Shown here: one piece after another, positions 3,114 to 54,198 of the stretch
How the letters are laid out: each line of letters begins with the position of its first letter
Numbering within the stretch: the stretch's first letter is position 1
Virus record (IMG/VR): IMGVR_UViG_3300026522_001173
Length of the DNA: 64,000 nt
Origin: an uncultured virus (IMG/VR IMGVR_UViG_3300026522_001173)
Taxonomy: Duplodnaviria; Heunggongvirae; Uroviricota; Caudoviricetes
Reading direction: 5' to 3' (one strand)
Program-made: the position numbers and the translations under genes
Notes under the pieces: generated by a model
What the model was told of the DNA's origin: nothing
What the model saw: the letters and a program-made list of their open reading frames with translations, nothing else
The model's database searches: none

Positions 3114-3535
3114 TAACTGCTCACCTCATTTCTGACCAGCCCGTAGGCGAATTCCACCTGTTTGACCGGATCATCGTATTTCCTCGGAATCTCCGGCATG
3201 GAGAAAGAATCGTAGTACTTCGCCTGTGGCAATGGCTTCGTTTGTCTACAGTCTCTGCCGAGCGCTACTTCACGGCGTTTACGTTCCTCCTCTGCGGCAT
3301 CAAAGGTCTCTTTATCGATGATCGTCGGGTAGCTATCGCTGCCGAGGTACTTCTTGTTCTGCAGGATATTTTTTACACCACTGTGCTTAAGCGGCAGACC
3401 AGCAGCCTTCGCAGCCGCTTTATAGGAACCGCCAATTAAATACACAGCGTACATGAGTTTTATCAGTTCTGCTTCTTCCTCGTTTATGACGATTTTTCCT
3501 TCGACCACGTCATATCCGAATGGTGTGTGCTTCAT
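3113..3535 (-). CDS. Recombinase-domain-only accessory protein
   Basis: PFGY...[14 protein letters not shown] is the DNA-binding part of a large serine recombinase without the catalytic domain. It sits between two full recombinases. Confidence 0.8.
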
Positions 3536-3536
3536 T

Positions 3537-5075: not shown

Positions 5076-5100
5076 TGTCTCGACCTCCTTCCCAGTCGGG

Positions 5101-5140
5101 GTAGTCTATACATCACTCTTTTTGCCCGAAATAGCAACTC
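5101..5140 (-). promoter_or_regulatory. Sigma-A-like promoter with AGAGTGAT box upstream of the recombinases
   Basis: Minus strand TTGCTA...AGAGTGATGTATAG. The same motif occurs near 43496, 45346 and 46660. Confidence 0.55.
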
Positions 5141-5142
5141 AT

Positions 5143-5358
5143 TTACGGGATTATCTTCGATATATACGGGGAGAAAGTTTCGCGGTTTTTTGCCATGATC
5201 TTGTTGAATTCATCAACACTTATACGCCCCTCGTCGAGCAGCTTTTTTGTCAGCTGCTCTGCAAGCAGATAGTCATATTCGTTCTGCATTTCTTCATTGG
5301 TCGGCTTCGGGACATCCGCCGGATTTACCCTGCCGTCTATCGTCTGTATTACCTGCAT
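5143..5358 (-). CDS. SHOCT-domain small protein
   Basis: KKLLDEGRISVDEFNKI motif, AGGAGG RBS, and the usual position before the recombinase triplet. Confidence 0.7.
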   Translation of the reverse strand: MQVIQTIDGRVNPADVPKPTNEEMQNEYDYLLAEQLTKKLLDEGRISVDEFNKIMAKNRETFSPYISKIIP

Positions 5359-5376
5359 AGAAAACACCTCCTACCA

Positions 5377-5410
5377 GGTAGCCCCGGCGGGAGGTGAAAT
5401 CTGACGGTTT
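5377..5410 (-). promoter_or_regulatory. Bipartite motif AAACCGTCAGATT-N14-GGCTACC (putative phage sigma promoter), copy 1
   Basis: Both blocks and the spacing are identical to the copy at 9890-9923. Confidence 0.6.
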
Positions 5411-5421
5411 GAGAGAATTTA

Positions 5422-7410
5422 TCAATCTTTTCTGTAGAAGTCACAGACATATCCATCTGCCCGGAGGATCAGCCCGTTCGCCCAAGGAGGGACACGCGCC
5501 ATCTGCTCACACAGGACGTCAAGGCTCATCTTCGGGTTAGCCTCGATGATCAGTTCGTCATGCACATGGGCAACGATGCTGCAGCACCGGAGCGTCTTCA
5601 TGGCATACATCAGAATATCTCTCGATGTGGCCTGCACAATGTTCTCCACGAACTTGGGACCATAGCTTTCGATCCGTTCCCATTTCTTTGTGCCGCCGAC
5701 ACCTTCATAGGTAACGGACGCGCCGCCGAAACGGTTCTCTCCGATACGTGGTTTTACATAGGCAAGTGTGCGGCCGGAAGGGAGGAGGATGAAGAGCATC
5801 CCGCTCTGATAATAGAACTTCACACCTTTTACCATCTGCGGCTGTTTCTCTTTTATAACTTTCTTTACAGCCGTATCCACATCCCACCAGAAGCGGACGA
5901 TATGAGGATTGGACTGCCTCCATGCATTTACAAGCGGCTGCAGTTCCTCCTCGGCAAGACCCATCTCAAGAGCGCCCATTGCTTTGAGCGCCCCGACTGA
6001 TCCGCCGTACCCGAGAGCCAGTTCTGCGATTTTTCCTTTCTGCCGGAGATGCCCATTCACGCCATGCTTCTCAACAGGCACCTTAAACATCTGACTTGCG
6101 GATGCACAGTAGATATCGCCGCCGTCCTTAAAGACCTGTGTCCGCCAGTCCTCTCCGGCAAACCAGGCGATAACCCTTGCCTCGATAGCTGAGAAGTCCG
6201 CTACATAGAACTTCTGCCCGTCAGCCGGGATGAACGCCGTCCGTATCAGCTGTGAAAGCGTATCGGGGATATCCTCATAAAGCATATCCAGAGCGTCCAT
6301 GTCACCGCTTCGGACAAGACTCCGTGCCTGCTCCAGATCCGGCACATGATTTTGCGGAAGATTCTGCAACTGGACAAGCCTTCCGGCAAACCGACCTGTC
6401 CGGTTGGCACCGTAGAACTGGAACATTCCTCTGCACCTGTTATCCAGGCAGGCAGCATTCTGCATCGCCTGATATTTTTTCACTGATGATTTGGCAAGCT
6501 GCTGCCGGAGAGACAGTGCCTCCGATACCTCGCCATCCGTTTCTTCGATCAGGGCAGCCACAGTTTTTTTGCCGAGCGTATCTGTTTCCAGACCGTTATC
6601 CGAAAGCCAGGACTTCATCTGCACCACGCTGTTCGGATTATCAAGCTCGGTGATATCCTTCATGGCTGCCGTGAGCCTTTTCCGGGACAGTTCATCTATG
6701 GCGATTGCCTGCTCCACAAACGGCATATCCACACGGATGCCCCTGTCGTTGATCTCCTGGTCGATGTGGTATTCATCCCATATCTCATCCGGCACAGGAA
6801 ACTTTGACAGCTTCTGCTGTATCTGCATTTCCGTCTCCACGTCACGGATGTTATACGACTTGTACCTCTGCCATTTTTCTGTATCATGCTCCGGCAGATT
6901 CCTTGTACGTCCGCCGTTAGACTTGGTCGGATTGCACGGCACAGAGAAATACCGGATTAGGTCTTTTCCTTCGGTCAGCTTCTGTTTTTCAAGCCCCAGC
7001 ACCGCACCGACCCCTTCCAGGGAGAGAGGAAGGCCCATATACGCAGACCAGACCATCGAACACCGCCAGGATTCGGGATTCAGAAACCTCGTGCATTCCC
7101 TTGAAAGCGGATGATTGTCGTGAAACGAATCAAGGCTGATACCCATATCCGCGAGATACCTGGACAGGCAGATACGCTCAAACTGCGCATTGAACGCCCA
7201 TTTGGTCACGTTATCGTCTGTCAGGGCATCCAGGATATCCGCCGGGATCTCTTCACCGCAGGCAAGGTCTATGGTCCTGACCTCACCACCGTCTATGCTG
7301 TACCCGAACAACAGAATCTCAAAATCAGGGCTTTCCGCATATTTGTACACACCGCATTTCGACAGGCTGACGGAGGAATATGTCTCGATATCAATTTCAA
7401 TGTTTCTCAT
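5422..7410 (-). CDS. Phage family A DNA polymerase with 3'-5' exonuclease
   Basis: DIET (ExoI), FNAQFE, ADFSAIEAR (motif A), RQKGKIAELALGYG (motif B) and HVHDE (motif C). Confidence 0.95.
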   Translation of the reverse strand: MRNIEIDIETYSSVSLSKCGVYKYAESPDFEILLFGYSIDGGEVRTIDLACGEEIPADILDALTDDNVTKWAFNAQFERICLSRYLADMGISLDSFHDNHPLSRECTRFLNPESWRCSMVWSAYMGLPLSLEGVGAVLGLEKQKLTEGKDLIRYFSVPCNPTKSNGGRTRNLPEHDTEKWQRYKSYNIRDVETEMQIQQKLSKFPVPDEIWDEYHIDQEINDRGIRVDMPFVEQAIAIDELSRKRLTAAMKDITELDNPNSVVQMKSWLSDNGLETDTLGKKTVAALIEETDGEVSEALSLRQQLAKSSVKKYQAMQNAACLDNRCRGMFQFYGANRTGRFAGRLVQLQNLPQNHVPDLEQARSLVRSGDMDALDMLYEDIPDTLSQLIRTAFIPADGQKFYVADFSAIEARVIAWFAGEDWRTQVFKDGGDIYCASASQMFKVPVEKHGVNGHLRQKGKIAELALGYGGSVGALKAMGALEMGLAEEELQPLVNAWRQSNPHIVRFWWDVDTAVKKVIKEKQPQMVKGVKFYYQSGMLFILLPSGRTLAYVKPRIGENRFGGASVTYEGVGGTKKWERIESYGPKFVENIVQATSRDILMYAMKTLRCCSIVAHVHDELIIEANPKMSLDVLCEQMARVPPWANGLILRADGYVCDFYRKD

Positions 7411-7462
7411 AAAGCCTCCTATAAAACCAGGCGGCAAGGTTGCCCCCGCCGCCCGGACACTG

Positions 7463-7618
7463 TTATTCTTCGGTTGTTTCCTGTTCCTCTTTACGCTTAC
7501 GGCGCTTCTCCCTGAACTTGCTAATCCAGTCTTTGACGATGATTACCCATCCGGCGATCACGATCCCCGCCGCCACACCGAAGCAGGTCGAGAGCATAAA
7601 ACTCTGATATGTTGTCAT
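7463..7618 (-). CDS. 51-aa single-pass membrane protein (absent from the ORF track)
   Basis: MTTYQSFMLSTCFGVAAGIVIAGWVIIVKDWISKFREKRRKRKEEQETTEE, preceded by AGGAGG. Confidence 0.6.
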   Translation of the reverse strand: MTTYQSFMLSTCFGVAAGIVIAGWVIIVKDWISKFREKRRKRKEEQETTEE

Positions 7619-7632
7619 AGGTCACGCCCTCC

Positions 7633-8184
7633 TTATGCCAGGAAATCATCGTCATCGAGGGTAGCGAAATCATCCGCTGCGTTCGTTCTGCCGCCGAGAG
7701 GCTCCCCGTCACGCACCTTCTGGATGTTGCCCAGACCGCATGCGATACCTTTATTGCCGTTGGAGTTGAAGGCATAGAAGTTCAGAGACACTCTCGCATA
7801 GCAGCCGGAGTAGACTTCGCTCCTGTCGAGGATCGGCTTGACCGCCCTGTCAACGATCTGGGGAGCGGTATTGGAGTTGGCGTTGATGAAGTAATGCCCC
7901 TTATAGGCCTCATCATCACGCTCCACATCACCGTCACGGAGAGGCAGCTTGATCGCAGCCTTGTTGGGCTTCTTGCCGCCGAACTTAGCGATACCGTCCT
8001 CGATAGCAGCATCGATCGCCGCGTTGATGGAGTTTACCGTGGCGGTATCATCCTTCGGGATGAGAACGGATACGGAATACTTCTCCGCTCCGCCGTTGAT
8101 GGATACAGGCTCCCAACCGTGGAAGTAAGAGAGTCTCGTGTTAATACCAGTGATAACCTTTGTCTTATTATTCGTGTTTGCCAT
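7633..8184 (-). CDS. Phage ssDNA-binding protein (DUF2815, T7 gp2.5-like)
   Basis: RLSY, KYS, PLRDGD, YSGCY and LGNIQK..DGEPL motifs with an acidic DDDDFLA tail. Confidence 0.9.
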   Translation of the reverse strand: MANTNNKTKVITGINTRLSYFHGWEPVSINGGAEKYSVSVLIPKDDTATVNSINAAIDAAIEDGIAKFGGKKPNKAAIKLPLRDGDVERDDEAYKGHYFINANSNTAPQIVDRAVKPILDRSEVYSGCYARVSLNFYAFNSNGNKGIACGLGNIQKVRDGEPLGGRTNAADDFATLDDDDFLA

Positions 8185-8186
8185 TT

Positions 8187-9329
8187 TTACATATCCTCCT
8201 TAATTTCATTAAATTCGTTCATGGCGTTTGTTACATTCATTGCCGGCCTCTTATCCGATCTCGGAACCAGTGTCGGCTTACCCGGCGGTTTGTAGATGAG
8301 GCCGCCGAGAACCTCTTCAAACTTTGCCTTGCCCATAAGCTTCTGCATCTCGGTGAGCGTGATCAGGCTCTTGCGGTAGATGTCCGTGTATCCGGCTTCC
8401 TGTGCCGCTTCAGCAACTTTTGCTTCGTCCCGGTATTTACGGACGGATCTGCCCTCGACCACCTTGAACCCGCTCCACTCCTTGCCGTGATTGACTGCTG
8501 CATCGGTAGCATAGGCTGTGATCTCATTTGCCCATTTGGTAAGGTCGGGAAGAACGGTCAGGATCTCCTCGATTTCCGCATCCGTCAGAAGCGGCGGCAT
8601 TTTGAACTCTGTCTGTGCCAGCTTCAGTTTTTCTTCCGCTCTCGCCCTGCATTTGACTGCCGCACGGCAGAAGGTACACCACTCTCCGGGGAGATATTCG
8701 CCCTCGCCGTTAAAGGCCATCTGCGCTTTCGGCTTCAACGTGTTCTCTGCCCAGTCCTTCAGTTCCGTGACCGGGATCGTCCATGTGCTGACATTTTCCC
8801 GCCTCGGCTGGAAGATGGTCATGGAAACCTCCCGGATGTCATACAGGGCATCGTAAAGTTCCAATGCACCCAGCGCATACAGTTTCATCTGCGGATTATC
8901 TTCAGCTTCGACCAGGATGCCCATGCCATACTTGAAGTCCACGATGTGCAGCCTGTCATCGGAAATGATGATGCAGTCCCCGGTACCAAATCCCTCCGGC
9001 ACATAGCAGGAGAAGTCGAGATGCTGTTCGATCAGGACAATCGGGTCTTTGCAGATCTGCTTTGCCGCCTCATACTGCTCCATAACGAAGTCCACATAGG
9101 CATCGGTGCATTCTTCCATCTCATCAGAGTCGTAGTCTGACACCGGACGCTTGCTCCTTCTCTTGAGCGCGCGTTTCAGCTTGTGTTCGCAGAGAGCGTG
9201 TGCCGCCGTACCTTCTCTTGCCGCCTCGGACTCGGTGCCTTCAAACTCCTGCTCCAGCCTTGCTGACGGAGTGCAGTTCGTCCACCTGTGAGCGCCGGAA
9301 GGAGATAGGATGGAGTGTTTTCCCATCAC
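8187..9329 (-). CDS. DUF2800 Cas4-like PD-(D/E)XK exonuclease
   Basis: LSPS..HRW..C, EGTAAH, FGTGD, IVDFKYG, QMKLY and C..C....C motifs. Confidence 0.9.
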   Translation of the reverse strand: MMGKHSILSPSGAHRWTNCTPSARLEQEFEGTESEAAREGTAAHALCEHKLKRALKRRSKRPVSDYDSDEMEECTDAYVDFVMEQYEAAKQICKDPIVLIEQHLDFSCYVPEGFGTGDCIIISDDRLHIVDFKYGMGILVEAEDNPQMKLYALGALELYDALYDIREVSMTIFQPRRENVSTWTIPVTELKDWAENTLKPKAQMAFNGEGEYLPGEWCTFCRAAVKCRARAEEKLKLAQTEFKMPPLLTDAEIEEILTVLPDLTKWANEITAYATDAAVNHGKEWSGFKVVEGRSVRKYRDEAKVAEAAQEAGYTDIYRKSLITLTEMQKLMGKAKFEEVLGGLIYKPPGKPTLVPRSDKRPAMNVTNAMNEFNEIKEDM

Positions 9330-9652
9330 AGCACCTCCGCTTCTGCAAGCACCGCCGGATAGTCCTTCGGGTCGATATCGCTCAAACGGTCTGCGCCATA
9401 CTTCTGAATAATGGCTCTGACCTCGGCTGTATGACCACTGCGGCTCTTTTCCGCAAGTACGCCCCTGACCTTTTCAAGCGGGATCTGCTCAGGCTTTTTC
9501 TCCGGCAGCGCTTTCGGTTCATCCGTCTCTTTCGGCAGACTGTCAATCACAAGGCTGCATACCGCCTGGATGCTGTCTGCCAGGGAGCGGATGTCCTCCA
9601 CCACCTTAAGAAGTCTCTGTGCCGCTTCAAGCACTAACGTGGCTTTGTCCAT
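9326..9652 (-). CDS. Conserved phage replication-module protein
   Basis: C-terminal LEKVRGVLAEKSR...KYGADRLSDIDPKDY is typical of the gene preceding DUF2800. Confidence 0.7.
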   Translation of the reverse strand: MDKATLVLEAAQRLLKVVEDIRSLADSIQAVCSLVIDSLPKETDEPKALPEKKPEQIPLEKVRGVLAEKSRSGHTAEVRAIIQKYGADRLSDIDPKDYPAVLAEAEVL

Positions 9653-9845
9653 TACCGTCTCCTCCTTCCTTTGTCTCGCAGATGGCGATCTCTCCGATGC
9701 TGTCTCCCGGTATCAGGACGGTCACTCTGCGTTTATCCCCGAGGAGAAACTTCAGCAGCCTTTCCCTTACCGTGAGGCTCTTGCAGGTCACGATCCCGCC
9801 AGTCTGCGGTTTCTTTGAAACACTGATTTTCAATTTGTGCTTCAT
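9627..9845 (-). CDS. Conserved hypothetical phage protein
   Basis: 72 aa with AAGGAG RBS; first gene behind the bipartite promoter motif. Confidence 0.6.
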   Translation of the reverse strand: MKHKLKISVSKKPQTGGIVTCKSLTVRERLLKFLLGDKRRVTVLIPGDSIGEIAICETKEGGDGNGQSHVSA

Positions 9846-9933: not shown

Positions 9934-9979
9934 AAATAAAAAAAGCCTGCAGGCTCCCCAAAGAGATACCCGCAGGCAT
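9934..9979 (-). repeat. 46-bp terminator hairpin and direct repeat, left boundary of the cargo island
   Basis: 42 of 46 bases match 23903-23948. Minus strand forms a GCCTGC...GCAGGC stem followed by T7. Confidence 0.85.
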
Positions 9980-9997: not shown

Positions 9998-10660
9998 CTA
10001 TAACAAGCTTATATATAGATATGACTTTCCGTCCATATCCGTATTATCGAGTTTTAATTTTACTGTAACTTGGCTCAGTTCTACCCCTGATAATAGCCTT
10101 ACTTTTGGCAAGTAAAACGTCAGCACCTGATTACCTTCAATATGTCTGTCGTAATCAAATTGGCATTGTTCAACATTAAGCTGTTCAAACGAGAGTCCTT
10201 TTGCAATTTCAAGAAGGTCTTCATCTCTCAGACTATACTCCTCTGCAAGATTAGTAGTGTCATCTGGAATATACAGTCTCTCCACTTTATTGCAGTCTTG
10301 AACCTTATCAAGAAGGCTTGGAACGTCATCTTCACTGATCCAGCGATTCTGCGATTCATATCTGACAAGATACTTTTTCTGCCTGTCACTTAATTGCTGA
10401 TACAGTTCTTCACTGGACAAAGCAATTCTATGCAGAAGGTATAGATTTTCAATTCTTACCAGTTCAGTCTGTGAAATACAACTAAAAAAGCTGTCACCCT
10501 CTGCCAAATTACAAAGATCCATTTCCTCCTGGTCGTACCACCAAGGATTGTCCGGATGCGTTGCACGAGGCTTGATTTCTCCACCTGGAAATTGATCTTC
10601 AATCTTACCGCAGTAGACTAAAAGCTTTATTTTTCCTATCGGGTCATTTCCCATCTTCAC
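9998..10660 (-). CDS. Hypothetical protein with C-terminal MqsR/RelE-like domain
   Basis: YSLRDEDLLEIAKGLSFEQ...VLTF...VTVKLKL...YLYIS resembles MqsR-type toxins, but the terminal SFH reads SLL. Confidence 0.4.
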   Translation of the reverse strand: MKMGNDPIGKIKLLVYCGKIEDQFPGGEIKPRATHPDNPWWYDQEEMDLCNLAEGDSFFSCISQTELVRIENLYLLHRIALSSEELYQQLSDRQKKYLVRYESQNRWISEDDVPSLLDKVQDCNKVERLYIPDDTTNLAEEYSLRDEDLLEIAKGLSFEQLNVEQCQFDYDRHIEGNQVLTFYLPKVRLLSGVELSQVTVKLKLDNTDMDGKSYLYISLL

Positions 10661-11660
10661 TGTCAGGCTCCTTCAATCCCGCAAGAATCATGCCTTCTGA
10701 GGTATATGCATTCGGCATCATACTCTTTGTATGTTCCTGTAAAAGAATCTCGTGGTAGGCATTCCCGAAAAGTCCCAGATCAATCTCACCTTTGAGAAGA
10801 CTGCTCGCTGCCTTAAGTGTGCGCTTGATTCCGGTAAGCTCTCCACGATAATATTCAAGGTTCATGTAGTTATGTTGGCATTCGTGGTAGAGGCTGCCGT
10901 CATCCCATTGAAAATAGCCAAAGCCCGTCATATCTGTGTTATCTGCACTCTTTAATCTGCGTTCGTAGGCTTTCTTATCTTTAACCGGGTCCGTATTGAT
11001 TTCAGTTACCACGAAGGGGCCGCAATTGAGTCCATCGCTTTCAGGATACCTCAGGTCAACCACAATATCACCCTTCTGGAATGGTGTCGGGAAATAAAAC
11101 CACAGCCCTTCAAAGCTATTCCAACAAAGGTCTGTTTCATGCTCGTTAAGTCCGACAGCCGTAATGTCGATAATATCTCCGTTGCTTTTGATACGCATAC
11201 ACATATCGAGATTGCGGTCATTTATCTTCAGCTTCTCTACTTTAATCTCAACGACATCCATTCCTTCGTTTTCGCTATCAGCCTCCTTCATGCATTCCTC
11301 ATAGGAAGAAAACACACCATCTGAATCCGCAAAACACCTATCGCCTTGATAAAGGCTGGAATACCGATACACCCAGCCTTCCTGATATTTCCGAAAGTCA
11401 GATATGAGTCTTTTGTGGAGATCAATATACTCGGCGAGAAAACTATGCAGGCTTGGAATTTCAATACAGTTTATTCTTTCTGCCACGCTGCAATCCGGCA
11501 TTGTATCGATTATCTCCGTCCATGCCATAAACTTCTCTTCTAAGTTCATACTGCGATTCTGGTAGATAAGCCACGCAGCTTCAAGCGAATTAAAGACATA
11601 CCCTGTCTCAGTCAGATAATCTCGGATATCTTTGGAATTAATGAAGTTTGTTATGTTCAT
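10644..11660 (-). CDS. Unknown-domain protein, paralogue 1
   Basis: Aligns by eye with 11657-12775: INSKDIRDYL...EKFMAW..IIDT.PDC and PTPFQKGDIV. Confidence 0.8.
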   Translation of the reverse strand: MNITNFINSKDIRDYLTETGYVFNSLEAAWLIYQNRSMNLEEKFMAWTEIIDTMPDCSVAERINCIEIPSLHSFLAEYIDLHKRLISDFRKYQEGWVYRYSSLYQGDRCFADSDGVFSSYEECMKEADSENEGMDVVEIKVEKLKINDRNLDMCMRIKSNGDIIDITAVGLNEHETDLCWNSFEGLWFYFPTPFQKGDIVVDLRYPESDGLNCGPFVVTEINTDPVKDKKAYERRLKSADNTDMTGFGYFQWDDGSLYHECQHNYMNLEYYRGELTGIKRTLKAASSLLKGEIDLGLFGNAYHEILLQEHTKSMMPNAYTSEGMILAGLKEPDSEDGK

Positions 11661-12775
11661 TTTGGTTCTCCTCTCTGCAGTAAGCTTTTTATATCCGCAT
11701 CATACTCGCCGCATAAGGCTGTCCTGGCACATCTAAGTTCGCCCTCTCTGACAAGAAAACGATATACATTTGCAAATGTATCTTCACCGATTTTCCTTTG
11801 CAGTTTCATAGACAATAGTTTAAGAATTTTATCTTCGGCAGATTCACTCGGCTCGTAGTATTCCATATCAAGGATTTCTCTTGCGCCCATAATCCCGAAT
11901 CCATCAAAATCGATATAATAGGCACCCTTATACATAGAATAATTTCTTGATTTCGGTGTGATAACCGCATACCCGTATGCCATCATATCGGATGAATCGA
12001 CATGGTGCTTTCTCCCTTCAAGCTGTCGGTCTGCCCGTGATATTCGTCTATCATCTGCCGGAACACCGCGTTCAAGCATTGTTCTTGAATCCCAATAGTC
12101 AAAAGTATCAAGAACCAGTTTTTCTTCACAGGATTGTATAATATCTCCATGTCTGAACGGTGTCGGAATAATGAAATACAGCCCCATGAGTTCAGCTTCA
12201 ATATCCAGATCTCTATCGTTCATTCCTTCAGAAAAAGAGACATCGATAATATCAAGGTTCTCGTCACATTCAAGATAGATATGCGGCTTGGAATCCGGAG
12301 AGTTCAGTTCCGCTCTGGATATCCTGTAAAAATCAGCTCCGCCATCATCCTCCATAAGGACCGACTTGATGTACTTTACGCAAGCCTCATAGGTTGTAAA
12401 ATAACATTCCTGCCCATTTCTCCATCCATCGTCATCAGCGTTGTAACGGAAAGTCTTGTGATGCCATCGGCTGACATAGTAGATATATTTCCCGTGAGAA
12501 TTATCCTTAAACCGATCGATCTTTCTGAATTGCAGATCCATATACTCCCGCAGAAACGCATGATAAGAAGAAAGCTCCATATGATAGACACCTGCCGCTT
12601 GCGTACAGTCTGGTTCTGTGTCTATGAGTTCTTTCCATGCAGCAAATTTCTCATTAAATGTCGTGCGACTATTATGGTAAATGATTGCCGCCTTTTCCGG
12701 GAGTGTAAACTCATGTCCAATTTCTTTGATATAATCCGTTATTGCCCTTGAAGGTATGTACTTGTATATATCCAT
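11657..12775 (-). CDS. Unknown-domain protein, paralogue 2
   Basis: IPSRAITDYI...EKFAAW..LIDT.PDC and PTPFRHGDII. ATGA overlap with the next gene. Confidence 0.8.
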   Translation of the reverse strand: MDIYKYIPSRAITDYIKEIGHEFTLPEKAAIIYHNSRTTFNEKFAAWKELIDTEPDCTQAAGVYHMELSSYHAFLREYMDLQFRKIDRFKDNSHGKYIYYVSRWHHKTFRYNADDDGWRNGQECYFTTYEACVKYIKSVLMEDDGGADFYRISRAELNSPDSKPHIYLECDENLDIIDVSFSEGMNDRDLDIEAELMGLYFIIPTPFRHGDIIQSCEEKLVLDTFDYWDSRTMLERGVPADDRRISRADRQLEGRKHHVDSSDMMAYGYAVITPKSRNYSMYKGAYYIDFDGFGIMGAREILDMEYYEPSESAEDKILKLLSMKLQRKIGEDTFANVYRFLVREGELRCARTALCGEYDADIKSLLQRGEPK

Positions 12776-12777: not shown

Positions 12778-13485
12778 TTACCCATCCAATCGAAATTCTT
12801 TCATATCGTTCAGTCTAAGCAGTACCGGCTCCTCGCCATAAGCAGCTCCGACATCAATATCAATCCATGTGTCTGTCTTTATGATTTTCCCTCTGAAAGT
12901 CTCCCCATAACTCATGCTTGGAGTGTGACCGAACACGGTTACGATATCTCCATAATATTTGTCCGTAAGTTCCGGCCATGCCCACAGCAGTTCCTCTGCA
13001 GTATAGTCTGAAGGTCTTTTTTTAGGGCTGAAATTATCAAGTCCGGCATGCACCAACAGATATCGTTTCCCTTCAACTGCGATTTCTTCATGAAGTGGAC
13101 AGTTCCGTAAAAAATCAAAGATTTTTCTCTGCTGCCTGCGGGGGATATTCTTTAAGGCTGCAAGGGTAACATCTCCGCCGTTTAACATATAATTGTTCAG
13201 AAGTTCCATGTTATCGGCAGATGTGATTGTATTTATATTCTCTTCCGTGACCTCATCAAGAATAAACTCACAGGAAAGCAGCATCGCTTCATGGTTGCCC
13301 ATAAGCATATGAACATTATCCTGTCCTATGATCCACTGGAGCATTTCCACTCCGCCATCTCCGTTGCGGTCTATAACATCACCTAAAATATATAGTTCGT
13401 CCTCGCCGTTAAAGTCGGCTCTGTTAAGGAGCAACTTAAAACTGCTCAGCGGGTAACCGTGCAGATCAGATATGACGTACACCAT
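12778..13485 (-). CDS. Calcineurin-like metallophosphoesterase (PPP / lambda phosphatase type)
   Basis: SDLHG, GDVIDR, GNHE, VHAG, FGHTP and IDVG motifs. Confidence 0.92.
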   Translation of the reverse strand: MVYVISDLHGYPLSSFKLLLNRADFNGEDELYILGDVIDRNGDGGVEMLQWIIGQDNVHMLMGNHEAMLLSCEFILDEVTEENINTITSADNMELLNNYMLNGGDVTLAALKNIPRRQQRKIFDFLRNCPLHEEIAVEGKRYLLVHAGLDNFSPKKRPSDYTAEELLWAWPELTDKYYGDIVTVFGHTPSMSYGETFRGKIIKTDTWIDIDVGAAYGEEPVLLRLNDMKEFRLDG

Positions 13486-13500: not shown

Positions 13501-13833
13501 TCATTCATCAAGATAGCAGTGATAGTGCCTGCTATAATCCCGCTTAAGTTGATACTCCTTAAGCCCAAAGGCACAAGCGATCTTCTCAATAGTCGCATCA
13601 TCAATGTGAGGGCTGCAGTATATAATTGCTGTTCCTCTTGCACCTATAACGACACGTCCTCTCGGATAGTAATCAAAGCTCTTTCCTGTATTCAAGCAGT
13701 TCCATGCTTTCCACAGTCTTTCGTGATTATATGAATCTCCGGCTTTTGATACTGCCTCCGGAGCATCTACACTCCCGAATGGAAACATCTTGATCTCATC
13801 ATCTACAATCCAAAACACGCCCTGTACTGCCAT
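13501..13833 (-). CDS. Hypothetical protein with FDYYPRGRV motif
   Basis: Coupled ORF inside the operon with conserved-looking NH..LW, YYPRGRV and HYHC segments. Confidence 0.65.
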   Translation of the reverse strand: MAVQGVFWIVDDEIKMFPFGSVDAPEAVSKAGDSYNHERLWKAWNCLNTGKSFDYYPRGRVVIGARGTAIIYCSPHIDDATIEKIACAFGLKEYQLKRDYSRHYHCYLDE

Positions 13834-13844
13834 ATCGCAACTTC

Positions 13845-14366
13845 CTATTCGACATAATCCATCCACGGTATTTGTATTACTTCTCGTCCTTTCATCTGCG
13901 CATACTGAATCGTATTAAAGGTTCCGCCTTTCTTTCCGCTTCTTTCATCGTAAACGGCGATAACAATCCCGCTATGATCAACCATATACTGGTTTCTTTC
14001 ATGGTAGGCGCGAACATGGTATGGAATCGTAGTAACCACATGTACTAAATCCGCCTTTTCTTGTACTGCACATGCCTCCGGAGATAATTTATTATGCCCC
14101 TCAAACGGCAATGCAATCTCAAGTTTGATAGCCGGATCAGTTTCTTTCTTCTTCAATACAATTTCTGCAGCCCATGTATCAACTCCCAGAGCGTTACCGC
14201 AGATAAAATGAGTAACCCCATCCGAAATAGCAGTGTTAATTGCATCTTCAAGCGCAGAGAGTAGTTTCATGCACCGAGAATCTTCCTTATCATCACTCCA
14301 GGGGAATGCATTAGGCCTGTGCCCGGTAAAGCAGCATGTATTTATAATTTCTTTAGTTATGCCCAT
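13845..14366 (-). CDS. SLOG-family protein (YpsA/DUF1273-like)
   Basis: CFTGHRP, FICGNALGVDTWAAE, RNQYMVDHS..VIAVYD and GGT motifs. Confidence 0.9.
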   Translation of the reverse strand: MGITKEIINTCCFTGHRPNAFPWSDDKEDSRCMKLLSALEDAINTAISDGVTHFICGNALGVDTWAAEIVLKKKETDPAIKLEIALPFEGHNKLSPEACAVQEKADLVHVVTTIPYHVRAYHERNQYMVDHSGIVIAVYDERSGKKGGTFNTIQYAQMKGREVIQIPWMDYVE

Positions 14367-14492: not shown

Positions 14493-16775
14493 TCATACTT
14501 GCTTAGACCTACGAGAAGGTAAATTCCTTAATTTTACATCCATGCAGACCTTTTGATATGTTTCCGGGTAGTTAGCTTTAAACCATAGCATTTTCATTAC
14601 CGCTATCGAATAGGAGACTGCGTGGCTTTTAGGGAACAGGTACTTTATTTTCTTAAGCGACTCGGTGTACCATTCCGGCACATTGTGTTCTCTTAAGATT
14701 TCATCCCACTTCTCACTGTACTGTCCTTTTCTTGTTGTCTCCATAATCGTATATGCAGTTTCCTTATCAATTCCCATCTTTAAAAGATAGATGTAGATAT
14801 CATCACGGAATGCAATCACCTCGGACATGGTGGCAGTTCCATTTTCAATCAGCTCAACATTTTCACTGAATACCCCGGTTCCGTGTTCAAGGCCGTATGC
14901 TTTAACAAATTCACCCCAGTTTTGAAAATGCGTCTGGTTAATATCTTCCAGAAAATAATCCGATGAAAAATCCGGCAGCTTCAGTAATCCGGAATCAAAA
15001 TTGATTTCTGACAACTCGACTCCTGTTCGCTCTGACAGCATACGCAATATTGTAGGATTATCGTGTCCGAGAATATCCATATCAATGAAATTGGTTTCAA
15101 GCGTATGCCAATCAAAATGCGTCTTTATGCCGCTTGTTTCATCTCCAGGAACGCAATATTCAATCGGCGTGTACTCGAATATCTCTTCATCGTTCGGGAT
15201 GAACAAGTACTTACCTGGGTTGATTCCCGTGTCCCGTTTTATTCCGGTTAATCTGTCAACAACTTCACTGATTTCATCACTGCTAACATCCGGGCAAAGA
15301 TCGTTATCCTCGGAGTAATACGCATCAACCAGTCCTCGTGCATGTTTCCAAGCTATTGTTGCTATCGTACCTGCCCGGCAAACCTTGTACTGCTTAAGAA
15401 TACCTGATGTGTAATTTACTATGTCACTTTGAATCTCACCGGAAAAATTCAAATCAATATCGATTTTCTTGTTGCCGTTCAATCCGAAGAATGTTTCAGG
15501 AACAATGTTGTAACCATCTTTGTGCATAGGTTTGCCGCAATGAGGACAAACCTTATCGGGCATATCCTGATATATCAGATCAACAAGTTTGTTCTCCGAC
15601 TGCACTGCATATTCAAAATATGAATCCTCGCTGCAGTAATAATGTGCAGGCAGAGGATTAACACCCGTTATCCCGAGGAAATATGCCGCAAGGCTTGCTG
15701 CTACACAGCCTCTGGATGTCACAGGATATCCTTTACTTTTTGAATATTCCACCTGCTTCATAGCAATCCAAAAAGATAGATAATCTTCATCTGAGATAAC
15801 CTTCAATTCATCATCCAGTCTCGAAATGACACTGCTCGGTAGATCGTCCTTGCCGTATTTTCTATGAGCTTCATTGTAGATATCAGCTGTGAGTTTTTGG
15901 ATTTCACTATTGTCGATGGCGGGAATGTATCTTTTCTCAGAGAGAGGACTGATATTTTCTATTCTGTCCGCAATTCTTTGAGTATTGGTAACGACTACCT
16001 CCATAGCCTTATCTTCGCCAAGCCATGCGAACTCGGATAGCATCTCATCCGTAGACAGCAGGCTCATACAGCAGTCTTTTTTATAATCGTCATACCCATG
16101 CCTTAACACCTTGTAAATGTCGACATCTTCTTTGTTAAGGTAGTACGCATCACTTGCGGCACATACAGGAATATGAAACCTCTGTCCAAGCTTAACAATC
16201 TCTGAGGAGGCACCTCTACTCAGCTCTGCCTTTTCCTGATCGGAGATCTGCCTTTCTTTCAACGCTCCTATTAAAGCTTCCTCCGGCACTATCTCAAGAT
16301 AGTCAAACCATTCAGCCATATGACAAACTCTGTCGGCATCTCCCATAAGGAATGCCCGGTAAAGGCATCCATCTGCGCCTGCGGAGCCTATAATGATGCC
16401 TTCACGGTGCTTGTCAAGCACTCTTTTCGGAAGAATCGGCATATCCCTGTAATATTCCATGTTTGCCTTTGAGAGAAGCTTATACAGATTCTTTCTTCCT
16501 GTTTCGTTTTGCACGAGAAGTACAACAGGAAATGTACCGTTTTCCAACTCAACGCTGATTTCAAGACCATAGATGATTTTATATCCGAGAAAACTTTTTG
16601 ATGCTCTGTAAGCATCAGGAAACGCCTGCACCGAATCGATGTCGGTCACAGCGACAGCATCCATTCCAAGGTCTATGGCTTTGCTTATTATTTCCCCGGC
16701 ATCGTAAAGTCCGGCCTTCCGGGACATTTTCGTATGACAATGCAGTTCTACTCTCGACAGCTTTATATTTTCCAT
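14493..16775 (-). CDS. polC: Truncated PolC-type DNA polymerase III alpha homologue (PHP, palm, thumb and fingers only)
   Basis: RVELHCHTKMS, SRGCVAAS, VNPLPAHY, CPHCG, DIDLNFSGE, DILGHDNPT and KIKYLFPKSHA are PolC motifs. At 760 aa it lacks the OB domain, exonuclease insert and C-terminal domains. Confidence 0.9.
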   Translation of the reverse strand: MENIKLSRVELHCHTKMSRKAGLYDAGEIISKAIDLGMDAVAVTDIDSVQAFPDAYRASKSFLGYKIIYGLEISVELENGTFPVVLLVQNETGRKNLYKLLSKANMEYYRDMPILPKRVLDKHREGIIIGSAGADGCLYRAFLMGDADRVCHMAEWFDYLEIVPEEALIGALKERQISDQEKAELSRGASSEIVKLGQRFHIPVCAASDAYYLNKEDVDIYKVLRHGYDDYKKDCCMSLLSTDEMLSEFAWLGEDKAMEVVVTNTQRIADRIENISPLSEKRYIPAIDNSEIQKLTADIYNEAHRKYGKDDLPSSVISRLDDELKVISDEDYLSFWIAMKQVEYSKSKGYPVTSRGCVAASLAAYFLGITGVNPLPAHYYCSEDSYFEYAVQSENKLVDLIYQDMPDKVCPHCGKPMHKDGYNIVPETFFGLNGNKKIDIDLNFSGEIQSDIVNYTSGILKQYKVCRAGTIATIAWKHARGLVDAYYSEDNDLCPDVSSDEISEVVDRLTGIKRDTGINPGKYLFIPNDEEIFEYTPIEYCVPGDETSGIKTHFDWHTLETNFIDMDILGHDNPTILRMLSERTGVELSEINFDSGLLKLPDFSSDYFLEDINQTHFQNWGEFVKAYGLEHGTGVFSENVELIENGTATMSEVIAFRDDIYIYLLKMGIDKETAYTIMETTRKGQYSEKWDEILREHNVPEWYTESLKKIKYLFPKSHAVSYSIAVMKMLWFKANYPETYQKVCMDVKLRNLPSRRSKQV

Positions 16776-16801
16776 TTGTATAACCCCCTGTTCTAATCGC
16801 T

Positions 16802-16979
16802 TTATGCCAGATGGATGTCATGGTGATACAGATACATCCATGCGTTAAAATCCGGGATATTGTCAAACACCTGATTATCCAAGAGTTTTTTGTGATATCC
16901 GGGAATATCCAACTTACTGCAATCCATAGTACCTGTTTTTTGTATGTTCGTTATAATCGGGAAAGTTTATAATGTTCAT
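16802..16979 (-). pseudogene. Small ORF apparently frameshifted in an A6 run
   Basis: AGGAGG plus ATG at 16979 gives 21 aa. Removing one A at 16936-16941 joins it to MDCSKLDIPG...HDIHLA. Confidence 0.35.
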
Positions 16980-21044: not shown

Positions 21045-22511
21045 TTACCACCATTCTCTATCAGGCAGTGGTAATTCTGGCAGGCCTTTTCTACGCCTCT
21101 CATCGTTTAATTTCTTCACCCGCTCCCATTCTCTCTGAGATGCAACGGCTCGTCTGTGCCGTTCTTCAGAATCCTTGCGGCGTTGTTCATCCTCAAACCT
21201 ACGGTCGCGCTCCTCCTGTTCTCTTCTACGGCGTTTATCCGAGATACGGTTTCCTACTGCCGTACCAACTGCAACGGCTGCAGCATCACGTATAAAGCTG
21301 TGACCACTGTCACCGCCTGAGTACTCGTCAGCTTCATCGTATCCCATTTCTGCACGTTCCTGTCTAAGTAGGATACTTTTCTGACGATTCCTTTCAAGCT
21401 GCTCCTGATAAGCCTTTTCCTGCTCTTCATACTCTCGGTCGATGCGATCTATATAATGCTTGACCGCTTCTTCAATGGTCATTGTTGTCCCACTCATTTC
21501 TGCAATCAAAGCACGTATACCGTCTATGGTATTGAATGTAATATTGCCTTTATGCTTTGACTCTACGCATTCTGGCAAATGAAGTTCTGCAAACATTTTA
21601 TTGAACCGAGACTGGTTAACATTGGCTGCTCGAACAACCTCATTTCTAATGTCTCCAAACGGAACACCTCTCATAAACTTATCATAGAGCGTAGGATAAT
21701 TTCCGGTTAAAATAGGCAGCCCTGCATTAAACACCTCTCGACTGATTGGCTGCCTTCTGTCATACAGATCCTTTAATCTAACATATTCTTTAAACTCAAA
21801 AAACTTCATCAGTATTTTTTTGTGTTCAAGGAAAGGCTTATACCGCATATCAAGCTCTGTCAGAACGGAATGTGAGAACAGATCTCCAAGCATATATGCA
21901 AATTCTGTTCTCTGCAAAAACACATACTGGAATATAGGATCATCATTCAGTTGTTGTAAGTCATAATCCTCCCATAAATATACGCTGTAATAAGAGGTAA
22001 ATTCAATGACTCTTCTTTTTGATAAGGCGAGAACGAGCTCGTCTTGTTTTTTAGCAGGATTCGGGTTAACGCATAGCTTTACAAGAGATTTTTTACCGGG
22101 CAAAGACGGAATATCAACCCATACCTCGGTTTCCTTTTCGTAGACAGTTCTTAACTGATGCTCGATTTCTTTAGCTGCATCTTCTGTCTCACTGTCATAC
22201 ATCACATTAACCGTAATCCCGTAAACATATGGGTACGTGTTTATATAATCAACATCTACAGTGCTGACATTGCCATCCTCATTCTTAACAAGGTATTGTC
22301 CACATGCAGTTGTGAAATTTGCATTTGTTCCCACAACCACAGCCGGAAAGCAAATCCTCTTTTCCTTTCGATCTGTCTTGTAGTTCATAAATGTGCTGCC
22401 ACCATAATATGATACAGGGAAATCCACATGGATTCTGTTTGCAATATCAGCGACAACAGCATCTGTATATCGATTGGTGGCTGCATCACTGCACAGCTTT
22501 CTGTCCATCAT
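21045..22511 (-). CDS. Hypothetical protein with charged coiled-coil C-terminus
   Basis: 488 aa with ATGA overlap with the WYL gene. E/R/Q-rich tail surrounds AAAVAVGTAVG. Confidence 0.75.
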   Translation of the reverse strand: MMDRKLCSDAATNRYTDAVVADIANRIHVDFPVSYYGGSTFMNYKTDRKEKRICFPAVVVGTNANFTTACGQYLVKNEDGNVSTVDVDYINTYPYVYGITVNVMYDSETEDAAKEIEHQLRTVYEKETEVWVDIPSLPGKKSLVKLCVNPNPAKKQDELVLALSKRRVIEFTSYYSVYLWEDYDLQQLNDDPIFQYVFLQRTEFAYMLGDLFSHSVLTELDMRYKPFLEHKKILMKFFEFKEYVRLKDLYDRRQPISREVFNAGLPILTGNYPTLYDKFMRGVPFGDIRNEVVRAANVNQSRFNKMFAELHLPECVESKHKGNITFNTIDGIRALIAEMSGTTMTIEEAVKHYIDRIDREYEEQEKAYQEQLERNRQKSILLRQERAEMGYDEADEYSGGDSGHSFIRDAAAVAVGTAVGNRISDKRRRREQEERDRRFEDEQRRKDSEERHRRAVASQREWERVKKLNDERRRKGLPELPLPDREWW

Positions 22512-23680
22512 TTTACATCACTCCTACTCAACGTCTCATATGCAATCCGATATATCTCGCACAGTTCTTCCCTTAAATATTCCGGTTCAAGTACAACGAC
22601 ATTTCGTGCGTAGGTCTTGGCAAACTCCTTCATGGCTCGGTCGTTAGTCCTAACAACAAGCCTGTATTCACCGCTGACTGCATTTTCGGATTTCTCAATT
22701 CTGATATTTGCCTTGCCAAAATAATCGATAGCATCGGAAAGATTGCCGTCCTGATCGTTTTTGAAGACCAACTTTGCAGTTATACTGCGTCCGGGACTTA
22801 ACGAGCTGTTTTGTCTGGCATAGTCGAACACATTATTCCAACTATGATTGATGTCCTTTAATGAAAAACTTGCGACTATGCGCTTTTCCTCATTGCTCAT
22901 TTCTTCGTTATCAGTAATACAAAGCTCTCTGATCCTGTCGATTCGGAAAGTGTCTAAAAATCTGGAACCTTGCTCGACATTTTCTATGAGCTTCTTTACA
23001 TCACTTATCAGGTCTTCCGGAGAACTGTGGCTGCTCCCGCATACCAGACCCACCAGATAAAAATCATTATTGTTCGCAGCAATTCCAAACGGGAACACCT
23101 TCCACACGCGACCGTCTATATGGAACTTTAAATTCTCATCATATGAACCATACTGAAATTCAATCACCCTGTGGTCAGAAATGGCTCTGTCAATCTCCTC
23201 AAGATTATAGAACAGCGGAGAAAACTCGCTGCCCGGATCTTGGGTATCAAGAATATAATGCTTCAAGTTGTGCCTGATGGAAGAAGGCCATAGCTTTTCC
23301 AGCTTTTTGACGATCTCTTCTTTCTGCTTTCTTGAAATGTGCTTTGCAAAGATAACGTTATAGATCAACGATTGCAGTTCACTCTTTTCAAATTCGTGTT
23401 CATAATAAAAATCAGTATAAACTGCGCTCTCTTCATCATCCTCCACATCAATCTCTTCGCCGTTTCTTTTCCTGATACTGCATTTGATATGCTCCGGATC
23501 ATAGTACATGACCTGTTTAAGGTTTCTGCTCAGCGTTTTTCGATTGACGGTAAGATTATAATCCGATTTGAGTTTTTTACTGATTTCCTCCTGTTTAAGC
23601 ACATGATCAGCATCTGTGTATTTCCTCAAAACCTCAATAATAAAGGGAATGATCATTTTCTTTGGCACATCTGAACTCAT
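22508..23680 (-). CDS. WYL-domain transcriptional regulator (wHTH-WYL-WCX)
   Basis: IIEVLRKYTDADH.L...VNRKTLSRNL wHTH; IDRAI...IEFQY...VFPFGI...FYLVG...FRIDRI WYL domain; VVVLEPEYLRE WCX domain. Confidence 0.92.
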   Translation of the reverse strand: MSSDVPKKMIIPFIIEVLRKYTDADHVLKQEEISKKLKSDYNLTVNRKTLSRNLKQVMYYDPEHIKCSIRKRNGEEIDVEDDEESAVYTDFYYEHEFEKSELQSLIYNVIFAKHISRKQKEEIVKKLEKLWPSSIRHNLKHYILDTQDPGSEFSPLFYNLEEIDRAISDHRVIEFQYGSYDENLKFHIDGRVWKVFPFGIAANNNDFYLVGLVCGSSHSSPEDLISDVKKLIENVEQGSRFLDTFRIDRIRELCITDNEEMSNEEKRIVASFSLKDINHSWNNVFDYARQNSSLSPGRSITAKLVFKNDQDGNLSDAIDYFGKANIRIEKSENAVSGEYRLVVRTNDRAMKEFAKTYARNVVVLEPEYLREELCEIYRIAYETLSRSDVK

Positions 23681-23710: not shown

Positions 23711-23890
23711 ATTCTATCTCATTAGGTGGCACTTATTTGCCCCATGTATTGAAGCATCATCGGCAGTAATTAAAATATTCGAGTCACTTTCAAAAGAACT
23801 GCTTATCACATACCTTTGATTCTATTATAAATACATATATGGGGCTTTTTTTACTCATCACTATTATAGCAGAAAATGCCGAAAACTCAA
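23711..23890 (-). promoter_or_regulatory. WYL gene control region: two box-N10-(-10) units plus a sigma-A promoter
   Basis: TGGGGCAAATAAGTGCCA-N10-TAGAAT (23711-23744), TGAGTAAAAAAAGCCCCA-N10-TATAAT (23824-23857) and TTGAGT-N16-TATAAT with extended TG (23863-23890). Confidence 0.6.
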
Positions 23891-23902: not shown

Positions 23903-23948
23903 AAATAAAAAAAGCCTGCAGGCACTCCGAAGAGATACCCACAGGCAT
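23903..23948 (-). repeat. 46-bp terminator and direct repeat, right boundary of the cargo island (lysis operon terminator)
   Basis: 42 of 46 bases match 9934-9979; lies directly after the endolysin stop. Confidence 0.85.
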
Positions 23949-51750: not shown

Positions 51751-52176
51751 TTATATCCGTATGGGATCCTCCGGCAGCGTCACATGGTTCAGCGCCGAGT
51801 TATGCCAGCGGTATACGGTCGTGCGGTCAGCATTCAATTCATCCCCGATCTGTTCCCAGGTCATGTTGTGGATATAACGGTAGCGGAGAACCATCTGCTC
51901 ATCCGCATTGGATGCCGTTGCGATTACCTCCCGCATCTGTGCCTTGAGGTCAATGAGCCGGTCGATTTCAGAATTGATCTTCTGCTCCAGGTCCCAGACC
52001 TTCTCAAGGCACCGCACAAAGGGCGCTTCCGTCGGACGGTTCGGATTATGCCGTTCCTCCAGGCTTGGGGAGGAGACGCTTCCCGCCATATCGCGCAGAC
52101 GCTCCATTTCCTCGATGTCGGAATTGATCCTGTGGTCGAGGCGGTACGCCTGTCTGAGGTATTCTTTCGATGTCAT
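51751..52176 (-). CDS. ArpU/RinA-like late transcriptional activator (DUF1492-like)
   Basis: KEYL.Q...LD..I and a C-terminal sigma-4-like VLRYRY...WEQIG..L..DRTTVYRWH. Confidence 0.85.
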   Translation of the reverse strand: MTSKEYLRQAYRLDHRINSDIEEMERLRDMAGSVSSPSLEERHNPNRPTEAPFVRCLEKVWDLEQKINSEIDRLIDLKAQMREVIATASNADEQMVLRYRYIHNMTWEQIGDELNADRTTVYRWHNSALNHVTLPEDPIRI

Positions 52177-54002: not shown

Positions 54003-54198
54003 TGTATTTCTCCCAGACCTGCCCCGGATCGAACCAGAGCCATATTTTCTCTCCATCACCATTGTCCACCTCCACTGTTTTGATGCCCTCTTCACGCTTC
54101 ATGCGTCTGACGGCGTATTTTGACAGTCCCTGTTTCTGGCAGATATCCTGCACTTTCCGGCAGTCCATAAATTCGCTGCCCACGATTTCTCTGATCAT
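53995..54198 (-). CDS. Small hypothetical protein (possible winged helix)
   Basis: 67 aa with GGAGG RBS, coupled to the VRR-NUC gene. Confidence 0.55.
   Translation of the reverse strand: MIREIVGSEFMDCRKVQDICQKQGLSKYAVRRMKREEGIKTVEVDNGDGEKIWLWFDPGQVWEKYSE

What the first reader, a model, noticed from the sequence alone, without database searches (positions are those of the whole stretch)
14493..16775. PolC reduced to PHP plus catalytic core with catalytic aspartates kept
Seen: the ORF starts at the PHP motif (RVELHCHTKMS), so the N-terminal and OB domains are absent. The 3'-5' exonuclease normally inserted in the PHP domain is replaced by a short linker (IYGLE-ISVELENGTF-PVVLLVQN). It ends just after KYLFPKSHA...WFK..YP, before the HhH duplex-binding and clamp-binding region. 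DIDLNF and DILGH aspartates are intact, while several PHP histidines are substituted (TDH to TDI, VHY to AYY) and KLDILG reads DMDILG. Inference: three domain-boundary deletions in an open 760-codon frame look like selected streamlining rather than decay. It could be a non-proofreading distributive polymerase or a repurposed nucleotidyltransferase. The phage already has PolA, so it is unlikely to be the replicase.
Basis: partly seen in the sequence, partly recalled or inferred. Interest (0 to 1): 0.85.

Follow-up and report, generated by a model that had tools for sequence, protein, structure and literature searches.

The report
Stripped-down, probably crippled PolC in prophage
A prophage carries a shortened copy of the bacterial chromosome-copying enzyme that has lost every part linking it to the replication machinery and probably much of its copying ability, and similar shortened copies have arisen many times in gut bacteria and are kept intact, which points to an undescribed job.

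Summary
In detail: 14493-16775 (-) is an open 760-aa PolC core (PHP, palm/thumb, fingers) with no N-terminal, OB, exonuclease, HhH or clamp-binding parts. It is not a one-off. Similar stripped PolCs occur in Clostridia, arose several times (one origin rejected, p=0.0005), and 14 are fused to a DnaB helicase core. They sit in variable WYL-headed islands, often beside a SNF2-MoxR-vWA operon; the window's 14-kb cargo block draws on the same gene pool. The frame is under purifying selection (dN/dS 0.14-0.20 against one allele). The primer-binding lysine (E. coli K553, reported essential) is aspartate here, the PHP site is dead, and in a related 54-protein clade 17 lack a catalytic aspartate yet keep 93% of other conserved positions. 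Best reading: a replisome-uncoupled, catalytically crippled or dispensable polymerase core kept for binding (0.45); slow gap-filling polymerase 0.27; slow decay 0.18; template-independent transferase 0.10. No activity was tested. Not found in ten literature searches.

The parts
14493..16775 (-). Stripped PolC ORF, 760 aa (PHP + palm/thumb/zinc finger + fingers)
   Evidence: model pLDDT 86, TM 0.84 to 3F2B/3F2C
15921..16754 (-). PHP domain, about residues 8-285; 4 of 9 metal-site residues kept (H12, H14, E72, D209), so predicted inactive
   Evidence: motif from PMC12926913
16533..16559 (-). Short linker (residues 73-81) where the 3'-5' exonuclease is inserted in most PolC
15705..15713 (-). GS motif R355-G356-C357 (serine changed to cysteine)
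15537..15635 (-). PolC zinc finger, C381, D384 (Cys in full PolC), C410, C413
15453..15461 (-). Catalytic D439 and D441 (DID)
15264..15431 (-). Codons 449-504: tract holding all 33 nucleotide differences from allele L023, dN/dS 0.14
   Evidence: same tract differs in three public runs
15075..15083 (-). D565-M-D567: third catalytic aspartate kept, primer-binding lysine (E. coli K553) replaced by aspartate
14988..14996 (-). Site of an internal loss of about 26 residues in the fingers (near residues 594-596); low model confidence at 595-605
14610..14642 (-). Nucleotide-pocket helix Y712-F714-H718-Y722, steric-gate histidine kept
22508..23680 (-). WYL-WCX regulator at the head of the cargo block
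   Evidence: relatives in 30 of 80 MoxR-anchored islands
23863..23890 (-). Best-scoring promoter-like site of the block (10 of 12, extended -10); consensus match only
   Evidence: 41 sites found against 33 expected, so weak
23903..23948 (.). 46-nt repeat copy at the lysin side of the cargo block; reads as a hairpin plus T run on the minus strand
   Evidence: hairpin read from the sequence
9934..9979 (.). Second copy of the 46-nt repeat (91% identical), closing the 14-kb cargo block
13845..14366 (-). YpsA SLOG-family neighbour
13501..13866 (-). 121-aa unknown protein; a relative lies next to another stripped PolC (L006) and in 3 of 80 islands
12778..13485 (-). Calcineurin-like metallophosphoesterase; relatives in 5 of 80 islands
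5422..7437 (-). Phage family A DNA polymerase, outside the cargo block

Best explanation
The gene encodes a PolC core cut free from the replisome and kept as accessory cargo of WYL-headed stress or defence arrays in Clostridia, here captured by a prophage. Shown: it folds as PolC, has lost the N-terminal, OB, exonuclease, HhH and clamp-binding parts, has a degenerate PHP site, and is held open by purifying selection. Inferred: primer extension is weak or absent in this copy and is dispensable in the family; what selection keeps is the fold with its nucleotide and DNA-end pocket. Most likely it works by binding: when the WYL regulator switches the array on (ssDNA or phage stress, by analogy), the protein binds Mg-dNTP and, in members that keep the lysine, primer-template ends, capping or slowing synthesis there, or it presents a replicase-like surface to a partner or to a phage protein. 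Loss of clamp and clamp-loader contacts keeps it out of the host fork.
For: Primer-binding lysine is D565 in all 7 alleles; K553A abolished activity in E. coli Pol III as cited in bioRxiv 10.64898/2026.06.29.735100 section 9; it is K in 134 of 134 full PolC. The protein keeps 83 of 109 columns invariant in full PolC (full PolC mean 108, minimum 103) but keeps the dNTP pocket R355, K436, R657, R682, Y712, H718, Y722 and all three aspartates. Closest relative P0003 (57%) lacks D441 and the fingers. Triad intact in 28 of 38 stripped proteins against 134 of 134 full ones. In a 54-protein clade, 37 intact, at least 9 changes of state on the tree; the 17 without a triad keep 93% of 97 other conserved columns, the lysine in 16 of 17, the steric gate in 16 of 17, zinc cysteines in 16-17 of 17. 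Clamp-like motif in 0 of 38 stripped against 97 of 134 full. Several origins, and a DnaE cut at the same helix (L100). Island context.
Against: No biochemical or genetic test. 13 of 38 stripped proteins keep all nine key residues and 35 of 54 in the large clade keep triad plus Lys/Arg, so many members may be real polymerases. The searches see only open full-length frames, so broken copies are under-counted, and triad-less members are somewhat less conserved than intact ones (93% against 99%, the latter high by construction). This copy's core is acidic (net -31 against a median of -13) and lacks the lysine, which argues against tight DNA binding. The genus of the nearest genome shows no full PolC in 21 of 21 genomes searched, which weakens a decoy-for-own-PolC role here. 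No PADLOC match. WYL control is inferred from position only.
Confidence: 0.45

Rival explanations
1. A slow, distributive, non-proofreading DNA polymerase for gap filling or repair, working apart from the replisome with island helicases, ligases and nucleases; triad-less relatives are its decaying offshoots.
For: Triad, steric gate and triphosphate-binding arginines kept. [quoted passage not shown] Recalled, not checked: E. coli alpha cut to 818 residues keeps low activity. Islands also carry NAD ligase (6 of 80), DUF2779 nuclease (6 of 80), SNF2 helicase and DEDDh exonuclease; 14 relatives carry a DnaB core with Walker A, 11 of them with an intact triad.
Against: K553-equivalent is Asp, GS serine is Cys, the EFGT motif reads DFSS, HhH and OB are gone. 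A six-member triad-less group persists at 48-86% identity.
Confidence: 0.27
2. Long-lived but purposeless cargo: partial copies of host polC swept into islands, tolerated once replisome contacts are lost, and decaying slowly.
For: A graded series of losses: L021 (683 aa), P0003 (574 aa), PHP-less cores of 374-474 aa; many origins; rare (2 complete copies among the listed matches of 151 family genomes; 3 of 401 order genomes with a second match; both are floors); only 6 of 80 islands carry one.
Against: Branch of 1.11 plus 0.21 changes per site without a stop; 7 of 7 alleles 760 aa; dN/dS 0.14, binomial p=4e-5 in the divergent tract, similar to neighbours (0.09-0.25); consensus kept more often at more conserved columns (76% down to 19%).
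Confidence: 0.18
3. A repurposed, template-independent nucleotidyltransferase that moves a deoxynucleotide onto a non-DNA acceptor or makes a nucleotide signal read by neighbours such as the SLOG protein and removed by the phosphoesterase.
For: This copy keeps the whole Mg-dNTP site while losing the primer anchor and duplex-binding parts; neighbours are a SLOG protein and a phosphoesterase; L013 also has a SLOG and a cyclic-phosphate receiver gene.
Against: Aspartates are among the less conserved positions in the large clade (76-85% against a median of 91%); the SLOG and phosphoesterase genes occur in islands without a stripped PolC; no fixed partner gene.
Confidence: 0.1

Closest known systems
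Replicative PolC (G. kaustophilus 3F2B; E. faecium 9QPC; TIGR01405, PRK00448)
   Same: PHP + palm/thumb + zinc finger + fingers in PolC order, PolC-type DxDxN site, about 38-40% identity, TM 0.84
   Different: No NTD, OB, exonuclease, HhH or clamp motif; PHP site degenerate; K553-equivalent is Asp; mobile cargo, not the chromosomal gene
Exonuclease-less PolC of Clostridia and Negativicutes (PMC3919608, 6% of PolC)
   Same: Exonuclease replaced by a short linker at the same place; 32 listed genomes of the nearest genome's family have such a full-length PolC (my count of rows)
   Different: Those keep NTD, OB, HhH, clamp motif and an intact PHP site and are about 1170-1360 aa
DnaE2 (ImuA-ImuB-DnaE2 mutasome)
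   Same: Non-essential extra C-family copy, degenerate PHP, shortened C-terminus (PMC3919608 sections 14, 17)
   Different: DnaE-derived, keeps HhH and catalytic residues, works with ImuA/ImuB; no such neighbours among the window ORFs scanned
ImuB and other catalytically dead polymerase homologues (PMC6511836, search listing only)
   Same: Polymerase fold kept after loss of catalysis
   Different: Y-family, with a known scaffold role; nothing comparable was found described for C-family PolC in my searches
WYL-regulated stress and defence islands (DriD, PMC9186387; BrxR, PMC9122601; abstracts only)
   Same: WYL-WCX regulator at the head of a variable gene array
   Different: No PolC-derived cargo described; no PADLOC model matches this protein

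Membership tests
Replicative PolC | Score above curated cut-off of PRK00448 / TIGR01405 | tested here: not met
   688 < 873 and 641 < 1043 bits
Replicative PolC | PolC fold of PHP and polymerase core | tested here: met
   pLDDT 86, TMq 0.84 to 3F2B/3F2C
Replicative PolC | Three catalytic aspartates with PolC-type Asn | tested here: met
   D439, D441, N443, D567
Replicative PolC | Primer-binding lysine (E. coli K553) and GS-motif serine | tested here: not met
   D565 and C357; K and S in 134 of 134 full PolC
Replicative PolC | N-terminal domain and OB fold before PHP | tested here: not met
   PHP motif starts at residue 8; upstream ORF unrelated
Replicative PolC | (HhH)2 domain and C-terminal clamp motif | tested here: not met
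   49 residues from the start of YLFPKSH against 176-179; no motif; next ORF is a SLOG protein
Replicative PolC | Intact nine-residue PHP metal site | tested here: not met
   4 of 9 kept
Replicative PolC | Four-cysteine zinc finger | tested here: inconclusive
   C381, D384, C410, C413; Asp may still bind zinc
Replicative PolC | Template-directed DNA synthesis | not testable with these tools
   needs purified protein
Exonuclease-less clostridial PolC | No exonuclease insert | tested here: met
Exonuclease-less clostridial PolC | NTD, OB, HhH and clamp motif retained | tested here: not met
DnaE2 mutasome | DnaE-type sequence | tested here: not met
   PolC models 641-688 bits, error-prone DnaE2 model 107 bits
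DnaE2 mutasome | ImuA/ImuB or RecA-like partners encoded nearby | tested here: not met
   none among 59 window ORFs scanned with Pfam; several cargo ORFs have no family
Catalogued anti-phage systems (PADLOC 2.0) | Match to a system protein model | tested here: not met
   0 families for this ORF; SNF2-MoxR-vWA proteins gave only weak partial hits
Template-independent Pol-beta nucleotidyltransferases | Product formed without primer-template DNA | not testable with these tools
   needs LC-MS assay

The most novel reading that the evidence does not exclude
Clostridial WYL islands repeatedly recruit the host's own replicase (PolC, sometimes DnaE, sometimes fused to a DnaB core), strip it of all replisome contacts and often of catalysis, and use it as a C-family pseudo-polymerase: an inducible cap for invader DNA primer ends or a bait for phage proteins aimed at the replisome, possibly read out by the neighbouring SNF2-MoxR-vWA module. 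That would be a class of defence or checkpoint protein built from the replicase itself.
Probability: 0.2. Interest if true: 0.87.

Novelty: new variant of a known kind. Interest (0 to 1): 0.66.

Why it matters
Surveys of C-family polymerases describe the catalytic aspartates as absolutely conserved and the HhH domain as nearly universal (PMC3919608 sections 14, 17), and set truncated or diverged sequences aside (PMC12926913 section 5). Here is a recurring natural form that lacks HhH, OB and the clamp motif, often lacks catalysis, and is still under selection. If active, it is the minimal natural C-family polymerase and includes helicase-polymerase fusions; if not, it is a C-family pseudoenzyme with an unknown, probably stress- or phage-related role. 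Either outcome can be settled with a few purified proteins.

Tried and rejected
Own genome not held, so host identity rests on the nearest genome only. First protein search was swamped by full PolC: only 2 short relatives among 120 listed; a 480-aa query fixed this. Viral scans gave few stripped forms: 1 locus, 1 stripped among 6, none of 2 useful; 0 of 80 viral MoxR loci carry any Pol III alpha hit, so this is not a phage-core gene. Annotated plasmid and phage collections gave 34 and 35 records, the listed ones mostly matching from residue 70-90 like full PolC; I opened none. Class-level search with a strict threshold found 0 of 301 and had no positive control, so it shows nothing. Expression: two metatranscriptome runs gave scattered contigs of depth 2-4 on the gene, which may be DNA; inconclusive. 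One clade of stripped PolC: rejected. An obligate link to MoxR-vWA: rejected, 6 of 80, and the window has none. An active PHP phosphoesterase as the kept function: rejected for this copy (4 of 9 residues). Fixed partner role for the 121-aa neighbour: it occurs without the polymerase and has no usable atlas hit. Promoter scan not above chance. The G. kaustophilus structure paper was not held. No complex prediction was run, as no specific partner is claimed. Earlier-findings look-ups by sequence and place were empty.

Full report
Observation. It aligns to G. kaustophilus PolC over residues 7-744 (E=3e-153), scores below the curated PolC cut-offs and has only PHP and Pol III alpha Pfam domains. 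An AlphaFold model on a 19-row alignment has pLDDT 86 and pTM 0.84 and matches 3F2B/3F2C at TM 0.84. There is also an internal loss of about 26 residues in the fingers. Seven alleles in the 90% cluster are all 760 aa, and contig L023 carries the same gene and downstream neighbours.

Setting. The window is a prophage: terminase, portal, capsid, tail, holin, lysin, then DUF2800, SSB, PolA and three recombinase genes. The gene lies in a 14-kb block between lysin and the PolA module, bounded by two copies of a 46-nt repeat (9934-9979, 23903-23948), with GC 39-43% against 49-53% in flanking phage genes. The main ORFs of the block run on one strand behind a WYL-WCX regulator. WYL regulators sense ssDNA (DriD, PMC9186387, abstract and title) and often head defence islands (BrxR, PMC9122601, abstract); control of this block is my inference.

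Selection. Against L023 all 33 nucleotide differences fall in codons 449-504; 18.5 synonymous and 14.5 non-synonymous, dN/dS 0.20 for the gene and 0.14 for the tract, binomial p=4e-5. Three neighbours give 0.09-0.25 and a fourth is identical. This is one allele pair and one tract. The branch to this protein and its sister P0003 is 1.11 changes per site long without a stop.

A family, of several origins. Of 407 proteins classified, 36 (7 of them alleles of this gene) start at the PHP motif, lack the exonuclease and end before HhH, 7 more keep part or all of HhH. In the search of 50%-cluster representatives, 22 of the best 150 rows are of this kind or its fusions, 5 of them already in or near the profile (7491 rows passed 1e-30, so this is a floor). 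G070, G143, G207, G309 and G843 each have a full PolC as well. On a 50-row tree (22 stripped, 28 full, chosen by me from 172 rows) the stripped state needs 8 changes, 7 forced by starred branches, and one clade is rejected (p-AU 0.0005). The window protein sits in an 11-row all-stripped group (SH-aLRT 96), but branches are long and that grouping may be attraction. A DnaE cut at the same helix (794 aa, L100) lies in the same kind of island in a genome where the query found no PolC. Exonuclease loss alone is known: 6% of PolC, in Clostridia and Negativicutes (PMC3919608 section 14). A clamp-like motif is found in 0 of 38 stripped and 97 of 134 full proteins with one pattern; the 38 are 34 rows left after dropping 9 near-duplicates, plus L021, P0003 and two fusions.

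Fusions. P0329 and P0376 carry a DnaB C-terminal helicase domain in front of the stripped core. A search on the junction gave 53 clusters; with P0376 they form a 54-protein clade at 37-95% identity, 31-37% to the window protein. Fourteen have the DnaB Walker A by my pattern (one more by Pfam only), scattered over the tree (6 changes).

Islands. Of seven stripped-PolC loci with flanks (window/L023, L006, L013, L014, L021, L063, L064), four lie beside a MoxR ATPase and DUF2201 vWA pair, three of these with a SNF2 helicase. In the reverse test, 80 of 576 confirmed MoxR loci from named genomes were returned; 6 of 80 hold a Pol III alpha-like ORF, all stripped: one the same contig as L013, one stripped PolC, one stripped DnaE, three PHP-less cores of 374-474 aa; 0 of 80 viral MoxR loci do. 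Window cargo genes have relatives in those islands: WYL 30 of 80, phosphoesterase 5, 121-aa protein 3, 338-aa 2, 538-aa 2, SLOG 1, 241-aa 1, while four phage genes and the lysin have none. Other island cargo includes NAD ligase, DUF2779, NADAR, RtcB, cyclic-phosphate receiver, GmrSD and a DEDDh exonuclease. So the gene is one variable item of an island gene pool, not a fixed system.

Catalysis. The window protein keeps D439, D441, D567 and the nucleotide pocket (R355, K436, R657, R682, Y712, H718, Y722), but only 83 of 109 columns invariant in full PolC. D565 aligns with E. coli K553, which bridges to the last primer phosphate; K553A is reported to abolish activity, S364 of the GS motif (C357 here) bonds the dNTP phosphates, and H760 (H718 here) is the steric gate (bioRxiv 10.64898/2026.06.29.735100 section 9; PMC8485763 passages). 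The PHP site keeps 4 of 9 residues. P0003 has lost D441 and the fingers. The triad is intact in 28 of 38 stripped proteins against 134 of 134 full. In the 54-protein clade it is intact in 37, changes state at least 9 times, and is less conserved (76-85%) than the median invariant core column (91%). The 17 triad-less members keep 93% of 97 other conserved columns at 38% identity to full PolC. Against this reading: 13 of 38 keep all nine key residues, 35 of 54 keep triad plus Lys/Arg, the searches cannot see broken copies, and PolC without N-terminal and exonuclease domains is active (PMC3656037 passages). That E. coli alpha cut before HhH keeps low activity is recalled, not checked.

Host. The nearest genome G001 carries 13.9 kb of this prophage at 94.5%. 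In its genus, 21 of 21 genomes searched (10 at least 90% complete) gave no full PolC, only DnaE-level matches in 20 and the stripped gene in G001. If the window's host is of this genus, which is not shown, the protein does not act beside a host PolC.

Mechanism. Shown: fold, domain losses, purifying selection, repeated origin, island context, repeated loss of catalytic residues with the rest conserved. Inferred: a binding rather than synthesising role, induced through WYL (0.45). Rivals: slow gap-filling polymerase (0.27), slow decay (0.18), template-independent transferase (0.10).

Novelty. Ten library searches found no description of stripped PolC, DnaB-PolC fusions or PolC in WYL or MoxR islands. 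I read sections 14 and 17 and passages of PMC3919608, passages and section 5 of PMC12926913 (its one supplement was cut when stored and gave no hit), section 20 and passages of PMC8373059, passages of PMC12592400 and PMC7824862. Supplementary tables of PMC3919608 were not opened and could list such forms; subscription papers and bioRxiv supplements are not searched. Verdict: a new variant of a known kind, interest 0.66.

Noticed in passing
proteins P0329, P0376, P0390-P0399, P0403, P0412, P0424: DnaB helicase core (no N-terminal domain) fused in front of a stripped PolC core, 973-1061 aa; Walker A present; gained or lost several times on the tree.
   Followed up: partly
L100:15989-18370: 794-aa DnaE that ends at the same helix as the stripped PolCs, in a WYL-SNF2-MoxR-vWA island of a genome where no PolC was found with the query.
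   Followed up: partly
L067:9116-10537, L081:10027-11148, L103:7295-8638: Even smaller PolC-derived ORFs (374-474 aa) without PHP, in the same islands.
   Followed up: no
L067-L146: A conserved SNF2 helicase - MoxR ATPase - DUF2201 vWA operon (helicase in 78, vWA in 75 of 80 loci), often with WYL (30), LRR protein (18) and a SpoVK-like ATPase (16); only weak PADLOC hits; possibly an uncatalogued system.
   Followed up: partly
genus of G001: No full PolC in 21 of 21 genomes searched: a DnaE-only clostridial lineage.
   Followed up: partly
window 14493-16927: In one public run the gene matches from exactly its stop codon to 16927 with other sequence beyond, and two runs and L023 have about 1.7-1.9 kb extra at 16925-16927: genes of the block are swapped as units.
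   Followed up: no
window 1542-9845 and 51751-57741: The DUF2800-SSB-PolA module lies after the lysin and cargo, next to the recombinases, far from the VapE primase and SNF2 genes; from recall these usually lie together.
   Followed up: no
window 10644-12775: Two adjacent unknown ORFs (338 and 372 aa) are paralogues at about 30% identity, with relatives in islands L073 and L109.
   Followed up: no
L064:4172-6823: Stripped PolC with an unassigned N-terminal extension of about 140 residues, directly before the SNF2 helicase.
   Followed up: no
window 57928-63789: A second set of tail genes and a GH18/CBM35 protein on the plus strand, apparently another element abutting the prophage.
   Followed up: no
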